A stretch of 49,811 nucleotides of DNA, from the IMG/VR virus record IMGVR_UViG_2579779084_000010, one strand, 5' to 3'. The position numbers and the translations under genes were made by a program. The notes under the pieces were generated by a model. It saw nothing but the letters and a program-made list of their open reading frames with translations. It did not search any database and was not told the DNA's origin. Shown here in pieces: positions 9,474 through 42,820 of the stretch (its first letter is position 1; each line of letters starts with the position of its first letter). Origin of the DNA: a virus. Its lineage: Duplodnaviria > Heunggongvirae > Uroviricota > Caudoviricetes.

Positions 9474-10049
9474 CTACGGCAGTGCTGGCCATTCAATATC
9501 CTGTGCAGTTGACGTATCAACACGGTTCAGCAATACCCGATACTTTTTCCATGCTTCCAGCAACGAGATTTCTTCCTCCGTTGCAATTTCCAGATCTGCA
9601 GCATCCTGAAGCGGCGCAATATGCTCACTGGCTACCTGCATCAGGTTGTTTTTTGTTTCTTCCGCCTCCCGGATCCGGAACAGTTTTTCTGCTTCTGCAT
9701 CTTTCACCCAAGCTGTGCCGTTCCACTTCTGAAACTCCCCTTCCGGGGATAACCAGGTGACATGTTCCGGTAGCGGTCCGAGTTCAGAAATAAATAACGC
9801 GTCGCCGGAAGCCACGTCATAAACCGTTTTACCCCGATGATCTTCAACGAGATGCCACGATGCCTCATTACTGTTGAAAACGGCTACAAATCCTGCCGGA
9901 ATATCTGGCGGTGCAATATCGGTACTGTTTGCAGGCAGACCTGTATGAGGTGGAATATATGCGTCACCTTCACCAATAAATTCATTAGTTCCGGCCAGCA
10001 GATTATAAATTTTTATGGTCCGTGGTTGTTCACTCATTCTGAATGCCAT
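9474..10049 (-). CDS. tfa: Tail fibre assembly protein (Tfa)
   Basis: 191 aa directly downstream of the side tail fibre gene; the stf stop region overlaps the tfa start; sequence typical of lambdoid Tfa chaperones. Confidence 0.8.
9485..9655. repeat. Direct repeat copy B (tfa 3-prime region)
   Basis: Partner of 6700-6870; the two copies flank the methyltransferase / AT-rich island / invertase segment. Confidence 0.6.
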
Positions 10050-37008: not shown

Positions 37009-37541
37009 TTTTCCTCACATATGTCATATAGTAAAGGATTATATATACCGTTGTTTTGGACGCTCAAACAGCGAATCAGATCAAATAAAACGCACATTTG
37101 TTAACATTTACACAAAGTCTGCGTGGGATATTCTGAAAGAATATCCATAATGTGGAGAGAATCTATTGAAGTGCATGGTGCCGGGTGCCTCCCGGTGAAT
37201 TCAGTACCAGCACCTGAATCCGCGATTATCCCATATACCTACTCGCTGATTGCCCCTCCGCACAGGGGGATTCACCATGCCAGTTTCTTTTAACAAACTC
37301 CCCGCAAACCAGACAACAGTCAACCGCCTGAATTGTGAAGTATTTAAAAATTTCTCCCGCTAACTGATACCCGGCTAACAGTCCGGCGTTTTCTTTTTCA
37401 GCAACGGGAAAGCAATAACCACCACACCCGCCACCAGCACACCGTCAGCCAGCACTGACATTATCCGGCTGCTGCAATGCCATTCACAAAAACAGTAAGC
37501 AATAACTTTTTACCGTAACAGGTGATAATCCAGATATGTAT

Positions 37542-38005: not shown

Positions 38006-38082
38006 TGGCGCGCTGTACTGGATTCGAACCAGTGACCGATTGCTTAGAAGGCAATTGCTCTGTCCGGCTGAGCTAACAACGC
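38006..38082 (-). tRNA. tRNA-Arg (anticodon UCU)
   Basis: Cloverleaf folded by hand: acceptor GCGTTGT/ACAGCGC, D-arm GCTC..GAGC, anticodon stem ATTGC/GCAAT with loop CTTCTAA, T-arm ACTGG-TTCGAAT-CCAGT, 3-prime GCCA. Confidence 0.8.
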
Positions 38083-38182
38083 TGAATACCGATAATGGAC
38101 CGCCATCGGGGACCCGCCCCCGCACCAACAACCCTGTTATCGCGTCGTCTGCTCTTCCTGATAAGCTAATGGCGGTTTGTGA

Positions 38183-38258
38183 TGGTGGCCCTTGCTGGAT
38201 TTGAACCAGCGACCTGGCGATTATGAGTCGCTCGCTCTCACCACTGAGCTAAAGGGCC
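38183..38258 (-). tRNA. tRNA with CAU anticodon (Ile2/lysidine-type by similarity to E. coli ileX, or Met)
   Basis: GGCCCTTTAGCTCAGTGGTGAGAGCGAGCGACTCATAATCGCCAGGTCGCTGGTTCAAATCCAGCAAGGGCCACCA on the minus strand; anticodon loop CTCATAA. Confidence 0.8.
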
Positions 38259-41254: not shown

Positions 41255-41374
41255 CAGAATCCTTCCGGATAATTAGCTCTCCCCTTTAAGGGACCATCCC
41301 TCTTATCCCTGCGCGCTACTTAAGTATTTTTGATTCTATTCCGGCACCGTCCAGAACTTCAAACGCGTTGAAAA

Positions 41375-41400
41375 TAAAAACAAAACCCCGCCGAAGCGGG
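41375..41400 (-). terminator. Intrinsic terminator downstream of hok
   Basis: Minus-strand CCCGC-TTCG-GCGGG followed by TTTTGTTTTTATTTT. Confidence 0.65.
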
Positions 41401-41470
41401 TTAAGTGCGGGTGCGTTGAGGATGCCTGCCACATCAGAGGTGGCGAGGGATTTATCCCTCGCCGGGTCTC

Positions 41471-41626
41471 TTACTCCTCAGGTTCGTAAGCTGTGAAGAC
41501 AGCGACCTCCGTCTGGCCGGTTCGGATTCGTACCTCGCAGAGGTCTTTCCTCGTTACCAGTGCCGTCACTATGACGGTTAAACAGATGACGATCAGGGCG
41601 ATTAACATCGCCTTTTGCTGCTTCAT
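41471..41626 (-). CDS. hok: Hok-family type I toxin (small membrane-depolarising peptide)
   Basis: 51 aa MKQQKAMLIALIVICLTVIVTALVTRKDLCEVRIRTGQTEVAVFTAYEPEE; strong SD AAGGAG; the ORF-track entry (70 aa) is an in-frame upstream extension. Confidence 0.8.
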   Translation of the reverse strand: MKQQKAMLIALIVICLTVIVTALVTRKDLCEVRIRTGQTEVAVFTAYEPEE

Positions 41627-42091
41627 AGCCTGCTTCTCCTTGCCTTTCGGCACGTAAGAGGCTAACCTACATGTGTCTAGCATGAAATTGGCCTCAGATT
41701 AATGTTAAGCGTCTTGCAGGACGCGTAATGTTAACTGGGGCTTTTCTCTATCTGCCGTTGGTGTTCATGCCCGAGGCAGATAGCCTCAAGCACCCGCAGC
41801 CATTCTACTTAACTACCGTTACCTCGCCAATGTGAAATCAGTCAGAAAGGCGATCCATAAGAACAATAGCAAGACAATAAATCGCCATTACAGCCGTAAT
41901 AGCCAGCGCACATTTGAGAACCAGCACCACAACCTCCTGTATTGGACGTACACCAGTCCTGATGAATATGAGGCTGTCTCGTCAGTGATTCAATACAACT
42001 ATTGGGTATAGTTTCTCTGATTTTTTCTGTGGAAATGGGGCTCAACCACTAGTCATTTAATACGCAAAGTCCGATACAAGCTAACCTTCTA

Positions 42092-42115
42092 GTCCGCTTT
42101 GAGCGAAAAGCGGAC
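42092..42115. repeat. Palindromic hairpin GTCCGCTTT-GAGCGA-AAAGCGGAC bounding the HAD/NUDIX cassette (downstream side)
   Basis: Perfect 9-bp inverted repeat; shares the GTCCGCTT/AAGCGGAC arms with the hairpin at 43558-43581. Confidence 0.55.
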
Positions 42116-42175
42116 GTTGGAAGTTTAAAACTCGCGAACTACTCAGCGTCCATTGATGCGTATTGTGTAACGTGA

Positions 42176-42820
42176 TTAACCACAGATGATATTGAAACGT
42201 TCTCCGGAAATCTTGACCATAATGTCAGACAGTTCGCTGACGGCATGGGCTTCAGATGATCCCAGAGCGTCAGGCTGAACAGCTATTACCGAAGCTCCAC
42301 TTGCCAGCCCTGCTTTTATACCCGCAGATGCATCCTCAAATACCACGCATTCACCAGGCTCAAGGCCCAAAGCCAAAGCTGCTTTGATGTAACCCTCGGG
42401 ACTTGGTTTTCCCGTCATTACATCTTCTGCACACACCATTACTCTGGGTAAGGGGAGATTAGCCGCTTTCATCCTGTTTTCGGCAAGCATTCTGCCTGCA
42501 GAAGTGACAAGTGCCCAGCTATCCGGTGGCAGTTTTGATAAGAGTGCAGCGGCCCCTTTTACTTCAGTAACGCCTTCTGTCGTGTTGATTTCAACCTCTT
42601 CGAGTGAGGCCGCGATTTTATTGGTTTTCTCACCTGCACCAATAAAATGCGTTAGTGTATCAATCGTTTGCCGCCCGTGTGCGTAAGCAATCACAGCCTG
42701 AGAATCAAGACCGTATTCTGCACAAAAATCTCTCCAGACGCTTTCCACTACGGCTGTTGAATCAACCAGCGTACCGTCCATATCGAATAAAAAACCCTTA
42801 GCGTTGAATATCATTGCCAT
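42176..42820 (-). CDS. HAD-superfamily hydrolase (subfamily IA phosphatase/phosphomutase-like)
   Basis: 214 aa; motif I FDMDGTLVDS (nucleophile Asp and Asp+2), motif II-like TSAG, motif III/IV K...EDASAG. Confidence 0.75.
   Translation of the reverse strand: MAMIFNAKGFLFDMDGTLVDSTAVVESVWRDFCAEYGLDSQAVIAYAHGRQTIDTLTHFIGAGEKTNKIAASLEEVEINTTEGVTEVKGAAALLSKLPPDSWALVTSAGRMLAENRMKAANLPLPRVMVCAEDVMTGKPSPEGYIKAALALGLEPGECVVFEDASAGIKAGLASGASVIAVQPDALGSSEAHAVSELSDIMVKISGERFNIICG

What the first reader, a model, noticed from the sequence alone, without database searches (positions are those of the whole stretch)
41375..41841. Solitary hok toxin gene without relBE, with strong ribosome binding site and terminator
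The encoded peptide is recognised as a Hok-family toxin. In K-12 Qin hokD follows relBE; here the upstream neighbours are instead the HAD/NUDIX cassette and a non-coding stretch of about 200 bp, which would be the long hok mRNA leader. Functional hok loci need an antisense Sok RNA and mok translational coupling; an in-frame 19-codon upstream extension exists but I cannot tell from sequence whether a sok promoter is intact. If sok is absent the gene would have to be silent or regulated differently.
Basis: partly seen in the sequence, partly recalled or inferred. Interest (0 to 1): 0.45.

Follow-up and report, generated by a model that had tools for sequence, protein, structure and literature searches.

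The report
Complete hok/mok/sok toxin-antitoxin module in prophage
The hok toxin gene is not solitary: it lies on the minus strand inside a complete, well-known hok/mok/sok type I toxin-antitoxin cassette, about 94% identical to the tested hokW-sokW of phage Sp5, so the finding is real but ordinary.

Summary
Window 41375-41841 brackets one hok/sok locus on the minus strand.

- **Toxin:** the 51-aa Hok is identical to E. coli K-12 HokD.
- **Other parts:** These are the hok promoter, the 169-nt leader, the in-frame 19-codon mok extension, an antisense sok gene, the 5'-3' end pairing (tac/fbi) and a terminator.
- **Leader:** it scores 115 bits against Rfam RF01794 (threshold 59).
- **sok promoter:** it is base-for-base identical to the sokW promoter of Sakai prophage 5, whose -10 element was mutated in published experiments.
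- **Overall similarity:** the mRNA from its start to fbi is 94.1% identical to hokW-sokW, a demonstrated type I toxin-antitoxin system.
- **K-12 comparison:** the relBE-hokD arrangement is the truncated one. Homology to this window stops 14 nt upstream of the hok ATG, inside the sok -35 box.
- **Frequency:** the leader plus hok start occurs in 4036 of 5426 complete E. coli genomes. The relE-hokD junction occurs in 1165.

Verdict: observation confirmed, the "possibly sok-less" reading rejected, already known, low interest.

One side observation may be worth a follow-up. The Sok 5' tail is about tenfold more variable than the rest of Sok among close relatives. That pattern could reflect pressure to keep co-resident modules from cross-reacting.

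The parts
41802..41830 (-). hok/mok promoter: TTGGCG, 17 nt, TAGAAT. It places +1 at G 41795.
   Evidence: Promoter scan. The -10 TAGAAT is shared with Sp5 hokW and aligns with comparable A/T-rich hexamers in most relatives. +1 coincides with position 1 of the Rfam model.
41379..41795 (-). Full-length hok mRNA, about 417 nt.
   Evidence: MFE -170.1 kcal/mol, z = -6.78, 0 of 100 shuffles fold as well. Both the MFE and the centroid structure pair the two ends.
41621..41795 (-). hok mRNA leader matching Rfam RF01794. The model is written in the hok-sense direction, from +1 to the hok AUG.
   Evidence: 115.3 bits against a gathering score of 59, model positions 1-157 of 157. Controls: hokC 118, hokW 113.5, R1-type 87, and no hit at K-12 hokD.
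41784..41795 (-). tac element, GGGUGCUUGAGG, at the mRNA 5' end.
   Evidence: Pairs with fbi in the full-length fold. Pairs with ucb in the 5' fragment.
41767..41777 (-). ucb, GCCUCGGGCAU: the partner of tac in the 5' hairpin.
   Evidence: A 33-nt 5' fragment folds into an 11-bp hairpin, -18.8 kcal/mol, z = -5.1. Element roles follow PMC9841398.
41692..41695 (-). mok Shine-Dalgarno GAGG, 8 nt before the mok AUG.
   Evidence: Read from the sequence. It pairs with dcb in the leader fold.
41471..41683 (-). mok ORF: 70 codons, in frame with hok, sharing its stop codon.
   Evidence: ORF list. Identical to Sp5 MokW at 18 of the 19 N-terminal extension residues (D3N). This exact protein is seen on at least 1000 contigs.
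41658..41662 (-). dcb, GCCUC: the partner of the mok SD in the leader fold.
   Evidence: The GAGGC/GCCUC helix closes the hairpin that carries the mok AUG. The same helix is in the Rfam consensus.
41640..41668 (+). sok promoter: -35 TTGCCT (41640-41645), 17 nt, -10 TAACCT (41663-41668).
   Evidence: Identical to Sp5 sokW over this stretch. Aligns with the promoters upstream of the annotated sokB, sokC and sokE RNAs and with the R1-type locus. The sokW -10 was mutated in PMC8621323 (primer YO-421). The generic scan missed it because the -10 matches only 3 of 6.
41675..41751 (+). Sok antisense RNA, about 71-77 nt: a 16-nt single-stranded 5' tail, a long hairpin and a U-rich end.
   Evidence: The 5' end and the 71-nt extent come from the GenBank sokW annotation. 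The longer 3' end comes from alignment with K-12 sokC. Fold -30.5 kcal/mol, z = -5.25. Consensus structure with compensatory pairs.
41709..41726 (-). 18-nt extra hairpin at the tip of the Sok-complementary stem-loop. It is specific to the hokD/hokW prophage clade.
   Evidence: Absent from hokC, hokB, hokE and R1. Present in hokW. Pairing is kept through two-sided changes.
41636..41641 (-). hok Shine-Dalgarno AAGGAG.
   Evidence: Read from the sequence. Partly paired in the predicted full-length fold. It overlaps the sok -35 on the other strand.
41471..41626 (-). hok CDS: 51 aa, identical to HokD.
   Evidence: Pfam PF01848, 82.9 bits. PHROG 251 'MokW-like host killing'. 100% identical to K-12 HokD and 48 of 51 residues identical to HokW.
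41409..41421 (-). fbi element, CCUCAACGCACCC.
   Evidence: Forms 12 bp with tac, with one bulged C, -21.1 kcal/mol. The tac/fbi pair covaries across loci: GGGUGC/GCACCC, GGGCGC/GCGCCC, GAGA/UCUC, UUAAGG/CCUUAA.
41377..41400 (-). Intrinsic terminator: CCCGCUUCGGCGGG followed by a U-run.
   Evidence: Terminator scan.

Best explanation
This is a complete hok/mok/sok type I toxin-antitoxin cassette. It carries the HokD allele of the toxin with its full regulatory RNA apparatus. It sits in the early-rightward region of a Qin/mEp460-like lambdoid prophage, between the replication-region genes plus a NUDIX/HAD cargo pair and rem-ydfU-rusA-Q.

Proposed mechanism:
1. The minus-strand promoter makes a roughly 417-nt hok mRNA.
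2. The 5' end (tac) pairs with a 3' element (fbi). This closes the molecule and keeps mok and hok untranslated.
3. Slow 3' trimming removes fbi. tac then pairs with ucb, and the mok ribosome site becomes usable. Translation of mok delivers ribosomes to hok.
4. The plus-strand promoter makes the roughly 71-77-nt Sok RNA. Its 5' tail is complementary to the mok start region. Sok binding blocks mok and hok translation and marks the duplex for RNase III.
5. When Sok supply stops, for example after loss of the element or during prophage induction, Hok is made and damages the inner membrane.

Shown here: every sequence element, the predicted folds, the covariation, and near-identity to a validated locus.

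Inferred from the family and from hokW-sokW: expression, 3' processing, toxicity and the biological role.
For: - Pfam HOK_GEF 82.9 bits, and identity to HokD.
- Rfam RF01794 115 bits over the full model. Positive controls hokC, hokW and R1 score 87-118 bits. K-12 hokD is negative.
- The full-length fold pairs nt 1-12 with nt 375-387, z = -6.8. tac/fbi covaries across about 50 loci from Escherichia, Photorhabdus, Pantoea, Erwinia, Kluyvera and Citrobacter.
- The leader alone folds into the three helices of the Rfam consensus, and the 5' tac/ucb hairpin forms.
- 94.1% identity to Sp5 hokW-sokW from the transcription start to fbi, with an identical sok promoter and Sok body.
- hokW-sokW is an experimentally shown type I toxin-antitoxin system (PMC8621323).
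- HokD is listed among Hok peptides shown to be toxic and used as assay controls (bioRxiv 10.1101/2025.08.07.668861).
- The locus is 99.4% identical in phage mEp460 and occurs in 79 phage records.
- The leader plus hok start is found in 4036 of 5426 complete E. coli genomes.
Against: - There are no expression or toxicity data for this exact allele.
- The sok -10 (TAACCT) matches the consensus at only 3 of 6 positions, so the generic scan did not call it.
- Native chromosomal hokA, hokB and hokC loci were reported not to mediate post-segregational killing (Pedersen and Gerdes, as summarised).
- The Sok tail differs from sokW at 6 positions. The mRNA target changes with it, since both are the same DNA. 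The efficiency of this particular pair is untested.
- The genomic position differs from hokW, which lies near attR in Sp5. The role shown for hokW may therefore not transfer.
Confidence: 0.88

Rival explanations
1. Solitary hok without an antitoxin RNA. The gene would be silent, or controlled only by read-through from the upstream HAD/NUDIX genes, as hokD is from relBE in K-12.
For: PGAP annotates only 'hokD' here, with no sok or mok feature. The generic promoter scan finds no plus-strand promoter.
Against: The sok promoter and Sok body are identical to the annotated and tested sokW (PMC8621323). The Rfam leader model matches end to end. K-12 hokD, which really lacks sok, gives no Rfam hit.
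Confidence: 0.02
2. The locus is structurally complete but functionally inert. Like the native chromosomal hokA, hokB and hokC loci tested by Pedersen and Gerdes, it would not kill on Sok depletion and would simply ride along with the prophage.
For: Chromosomal hok/sok loci were reported not to give post-segregational killing or rifampicin activation (summarised). No functional data exist for this allele.
Against: - The nearest relative, hokW-sokW, is active from its native prophage (PMC8621323).
- Every regulatory pairing is conserved, with compensatory changes. That indicates ongoing selection.
- The module is kept in inducible phages.
Confidence: 0.1
3. The architecture is the same, but the selected role is defence against superinfecting lytic phages (abortive infection), not prophage addiction or help with lysis.
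For: R1 hok/sok on a high-copy plasmid reduces T4 plating (cited). Prophages often carry defence cargo. The site just upstream is a variable cargo slot.
Against: The 2025 Hok survey found no enrichment of hok near defence systems. The only direct test of a prophage hok/sok found a positive effect on the phage's own release.
Confidence: 0.2

Closest known systems
hokW-mokW-sokW of Sakai prophage 5 / phage VT2-Sakai (AP000422, 59815-60089)
   Same: - The architecture is the same element for element.
- 94.1% nucleotide identity from +1 to fbi.
- Identical sok promoter and hok SD, and a Sok stem-loop differing at one loop base, including the 18-nt extra hairpin.
- Hok is identical at 48 of 51 residues.
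   Different: - 6 of the 7 leader differences cluster at 41677-41690, the Sok 5' tail and mok start.
- Hok C-terminus is TAYEPEE here and VDYESEK in HokW.
- The sequence downstream of fbi, including the terminator, is unrelated.
- hokW lies near attR, opposite in orientation to the late genes. This locus lies in the early-rightward region, co-oriented with it.
relB-relE-hokD (relF) of the K-12 Qin cryptic prophage
   Same: Identical HokD protein. Only 3 mismatches in 327 nt from the hok ATG through the 3' UTR and terminator. The downstream neighbours rem and ydfU are the same.
   Different: K-12 homology ends 14 nt upstream of the ATG, at window position 41640/41641, inside the sok -35. The promoter, tac, ucb, mok start, dcb and sok are replaced by the relE 3' end. 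There is no RF01794 hit.
hok/sok of plasmid R1 (parB), the family archetype
   Same: Same set of elements: tac/fbi, ucb, dcb, mok, antisense Sok, and a sok -35 overlapping the hok SD.
   Different: Hok is identical at only about 25 of 52 residues (alignment). The tac/fbi sequences differ in a compensatory way (GGCGC/GCGCC). R1 has no 18-nt Sok hairpin insert. It is plasmid-borne.
hokC(gef)/mokC/sokC of E. coli
   Same: In-frame mok, a closely related leader (RF01794 118 bits) and a similar Hok.
   Different: Chromosomal rather than prophage-borne. No Sok loop insert. In K-12 its 3' end, including fbi, is cut by IS186.

Membership tests
[quoted passage not shown] | Small hydrophobic Hok/Gef-family toxin peptide. 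| tested here: met
   PF01848, 82.9 bits against a cut-off of 22. Identical to HokD.
[quoted passage not shown] | Overlapping mok reading frame that starts upstream of hok with its own Shine-Dalgarno. | tested here: met
   70-codon ORF 41683..41471. GAGG lies 8 nt upstream. 18 of the 19 extension residues match MokW.
[quoted passage not shown] | cis-encoded antisense Sok RNA gene with its own promoter, complementary to the mok translation start. | tested here: met
   The promoter and 59-nt body match annotated sokW except for one loop base. The 5' tail covers the mok AUG. Transcription itself was not tested.
[quoted passage not shown] | Leader sequence and structure of Rfam RF01794. | tested here: met
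   115.3 bits against 59, full-length match. Controls.
[quoted passage not shown] | 5'-3' end pairing (tac/fbi) that closes the full-length mRNA. | tested here: met
   12 bp in the MFE and centroid structures. Compensatory changes across loci.
[quoted passage not shown] | Alternative tac/ucb hairpin and mok-SD/dcb hairpin of the processed form. | tested here: met
   The folds of nt 1-33 and nt 1-141 give exactly these helices. Definitions from PMC9841398.
[quoted passage not shown] | Hok toxicity neutralised by Sok; activation by 3' processing after transcription stops. | not testable with these tools
   Only by analogy. HokD is reported toxic. hokW-sokW was shown to work as a toxin-antitoxin pair.
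relBEF (relB-relE-hokD) operon of Qin | hokD lies immediately downstream of relE and is transcribed from the relB promoter, with no own leader. | tested here: not met
   No relB or relE within the window segment examined. HAD and NUDIX lie upstream, and the full leader is present.

The most novel reading that the evidence does not exclude
The 16-nt Sok 5' tail, which is also the mok start region, may be a fast-evolving specificity determinant. It would keep the several near-identical prophage hok/sok modules in one cell from cross-repressing each other.

- Mean pairwise difference is 0.40 in the tail and 0.04 in the rest of Sok among the 10 closest relatives.
- It is the most variable 15-nt bin of the whole locus across 70 unique sequences.
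- In the two genomes sampled that carry two or three such loci, the tails are all different.

A second, weaker idea concerns position. This copy is co-oriented inside the early-rightward region, so read-through at induction could override the convergent sok promoter and time Hok release.
Probability: 0.35. Interest if true: 0.35.

Novelty: already known. Interest (0 to 1): 0.1.

Why it matters
It matters mainly as an annotation point. Pipelines label this gene only 'hokD', and the K-12 reference shows hokD fused behind relBE. A reader can therefore mistake the intact module for an orphan toxin.

The intact form is the common one, and the K-12 form is a truncation whose breakpoint lies inside the sok -35 box. 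No new biology is implied. The hok/sok mechanism and the prophage hokW-sokW system are already described.

The only item that might repay work is the concentrated variability of the Sok recognition tail among co-resident prophage copies.

Tried and rejected
1. The generic sigma-70 scan did not report the sok promoter, because its -10 matches only 3 of 6. I located it by aligning the regions upstream of the annotated sokB, sokC and sokE RNAs with the R1-type and sokW sequences.
2. I first labelled CUCUUAC (just upstream of the hok SD) and GUAAGAG (at the stop codon) as ucb and dcb, because they pair in the MFE structure. PMC9841398 showed this was wrong. ucb is the tac partner near the 5' end, and dcb is the GCCUC partner of the mok SD. 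I re-tested with fragment folds.
3. hokW was not in the first 30 kb of AP000422. It lies near attR.
4. The 29/30-aa hydrophobic ORF upstream (41930..41838) has no Pfam, PHROG or NCBIfam match. It is called only 'hypothetical' in a few records. Divergence is too low to judge selection: 2 synonymous and 4 non-synonymous nucleotide changes against the most distant copy.
5. The viral-contig scan returned mostly identical copies, because hits are ranked by Mok identity. It therefore under-samples Sok tail diversity.
6. A cognate versus non-cognate tac/fbi duplex comparison gave only a modest mean difference (-19.7 against -17.7 kcal/mol), because tac varies little. The individual compensatory changes are the more informative evidence.

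Full report
**What is at the coordinates**

The hok gene lies on the minus strand. Its CDS is 41626..41471 and encodes MKQQKAMLIALIVICLTVIVTALVTRKDLCEVRIRTGQTEVAVFTAYEPEE. The protein matches Pfam HOK_GEF at 82.9 bits and PHROG 251 'MokW-like host killing'. It is identical to K-12 HokD.

A 70-codon ORF, 41683..41471, extends hok by 19 in-frame codons. A GC stem, UUCG loop and U-run terminator lie at 41400..41377. A TTGGCG-17-TAGAAT promoter lies at 41830..41802.

Upstream on the same strand are a HAD hydrolase and a NUDIX hydrolase. Downstream are rem, a 92-aa ORF, ydfU (DUF968), rusA and Q. An E. coli chromosome matching the 901-nt query (window 41300-42200) at 99.8% shows the same gene order. 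In K-12 Qin the order is relB-relE-hokD-rem-ydfU.

**Is the regulatory apparatus there?**

Rfam RF01794 ('sok') matches 41795..41621 on the minus strand at 115.3 bits. The gathering score is 59, and all 157 model positions are matched. The model is written in the hok-mRNA sense. It starts at the mRNA 5' end and finishes at the hok AUG, so the hit shows the whole leader is present.

Controls behave as expected. K-12 hokC scores 118.3, Sp5 hokW 113.5 and an R1-type plasmid locus 87.2. The K-12 hokD region gives no hit.

The antisense sok gene was located by alignment with the annotated sokB, sokC and sokE RNAs, with the R1-type locus and with sokW.
- -35 TTGCCT at 41640-41645.
- A 17-nt spacer.
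- -10 TAACCT at 41663-41668.
- Start at about 41675.
- End at 41745 by the sokW annotation, or about 41751 by alignment with sokC.

The Sok 5' tail, GUCUAGCAUGAAAUUG, is the complement of the mok start region. The rest of Sok folds into a long interrupted hairpin followed by a U-rich end (-30.5 kcal/mol, z = -5.25).

**RNA switches**

Folding the 417-nt mRNA pairs nt 1-12 (tac, GGGUGCUUGAGG) with nt 375-387 (fbi, CCUCAACGCACCC, window 41421..41409). This holds in both the MFE and the centroid structure. The fold has z = -6.78, and no shuffle does as well.

About 50 unique related loci were fetched from the species-representative genome collection, and in them tac and fbi change together. Examples are GGGUGC/GCACCC, GGGCGC/GCGCCC (Photorhabdus, Pantoea), GGCGC/GCGCC (R1), GAGA/UCUC, UUAAGG/CCUUAA and GAAG/CUUC.

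The first 33 nt form the tac/ucb hairpin (-18.8 kcal/mol, z = -5.1). The first 141 nt fold into the three helices of the Rfam consensus. These include the hairpin in which the mok SD (GAGGC) pairs with dcb (GCCUC) and the mok AUG sits next to the loop. Element definitions come from PMC9841398. I had first mislabelled ucb and dcb and corrected this.

**Comparison with a validated locus**

Phage VT2-Sakai (Sp5) carries annotated hokW, mokW and sokW. The window is 94.1% identical to it from +1 to fbi.

The sok promoter and hok SD are identical. The Sok stem-loop differs at one loop base and includes an 18-nt extra hairpin absent from hokC, hokB, hokE and R1.

Takada et al. showed three things (PMC8621323).
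- HokW is toxic.
- sokW expressed from its own promoter neutralises it.
- Mutating the sokW -10 releases toxicity. Their primer YO-421 shows TAACCT changed to GAGCCG, and TAACCT is the same hexamer found here.

HokD is listed among the previously characterised toxic Hok peptides used as assay controls in the 2025 Hok survey.

**Relation to K-12**

K-12 hokD is identical to the window from 14 nt upstream of the ATG, with only 3 mismatches in the 327 nt from the ATG through the 3' UTR and terminator. Upstream of window position 41640 the K-12 sequence is the relE 3' region. The breakpoint lies inside the sok -35 box. K-12 therefore lost the promoter, tac, ucb, the mok start, dcb and sok.

The relE-hokD junction occurs in 1165 of 5426 complete E. 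coli genomes. The leader plus hok start occurs in 4036. The locus is 99.4% identical in phage mEp460 and is present in 79 phage records. It is common and already annotated in phage records as hokW/mokW/sokW.

**Likely function**

The mechanism follows the family: a stable closed mRNA, 3' trimming, Sok-blocked mok translation, and Hok damage to the inner membrane. This is inferred, not shown, for this allele.

The role could be prophage addiction, help with lysis at induction as found for hokW-sokW, or exclusion of other phages. The data here do not separate these.

**Side observations**

- Among close relatives the Sok 5' tail and mok start is by far the most variable part. Pairwise difference is 0.40 in the tail against 0.04 in the Sok body. 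It is the top 15-nt bin along the whole locus. Six of the 7 leader differences from hokW fall at 41677-41690. Co-resident copies in two genomes carry different tails.
- The sequence upstream of the hok promoter is mosaic. Only 2 of 120 related loci carry the HAD gene.
- A 29/30-aa hydrophobic ORF with an AGGAGG site lies just upstream of the promoter. It stays open in the 86%-identical copies found, but has no family match.

**Verdict**

It is an already known kind of element, and interest is low.

Noticed in passing
window 41676-41690 (plus-strand Sok 5' tail; minus-strand mok start): This is the most variable segment of the locus among near-identical prophage hok/sok copies. Pairwise difference is 0.40, against 0.04 in the Sok body. 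Co-resident copies in S. flexneri SFBU1023 and E. coli ECMA0423 have different tails. This could reflect diversification that avoids cross-repression.
   Followed up: partly
window 41709-41726: An 18-nt extra hairpin sits at the tip of the Sok stem-loop. It is shared with hokW and the prophage clade and is absent from hokB, hokC, hokE and R1. Pairing is kept by two-sided changes in Kluyvera-like and other copies.
   Followed up: partly
window 41838-41930, minus strand: A 29/30-aa hydrophobic ORF, (M)VLVLKCALAITAVMAIYCLAIVLMDRLSD, lies behind an AGGAGG site just upstream of the hok promoter. It stays open in the 86%-identical copies found. It has no family match and is called 'hypothetical' in a few records. 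A terminator-like hairpin (41903-41884) lies inside it.
   Followed up: partly
window 41640/41641, compared with L002 (K-12 Qin): The K-12 relE-hokD fusion breakpoint falls inside the sok -35 box. The fused form occurs in 1165 of 5426 complete E. coli genomes, and the intact leader in 4036.
   Followed up: yes
window 41486-41488 (hok codon Tyr47, TAC within CUUACGAA): A UACG motif resembling the TadA editing context sits at the C-terminal tyrosine codon. The 2025 Hok preprint says hokD mRNA is A-to-I edited to recode a tyrosine to cysteine near this position. I did not examine this further.
   Followed up: no
window 41796-42400, compared with loci L012-L154: The sequence upstream of the hok promoter is mosaic. 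Only 2 of 120 related loci carry the HAD 3' end, 37 share the small-ORF spacer, and 83 have unrelated sequence. The slot upstream of hok looks like a variable cargo site: relBE in K-12, HAD/NUDIX here, and a 449-aa ORF in mEp460.
   Followed up: partly
L072 (Shigella flexneri SFBU0723, 4182978-4184449): This locus has a leader of the window type, but the sequence diverges right after GGCTAT at the hok start codon. It looks like a hok disrupted by a rearrangement or an insertion.
   Followed up: no
L016, L020, L048, L063: Near-identical E. coli-type hok loci appear on contigs of 275-22874 bp in records titled Veillonella parvula MAG, Xanthomonas pisi, Acinetobacter idrijaensis and Haemophilus MAG. 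This probably reflects assembly contamination or mis-binning.
   Followed up: no
window 9508-9706, 37119-37309, 38009-38258: Other Rfam hits in the window are IS009 (221 bits), STnc100 (114 bits) and two tRNA genes just downstream of Q, all on the minus strand.
   Followed up: no
window 41333-41362, minus strand: A promoter-like site, TTGAAG-18-TAGAAT, lies between the hok terminator and rem. It may be a rem promoter.
   Followed up: no
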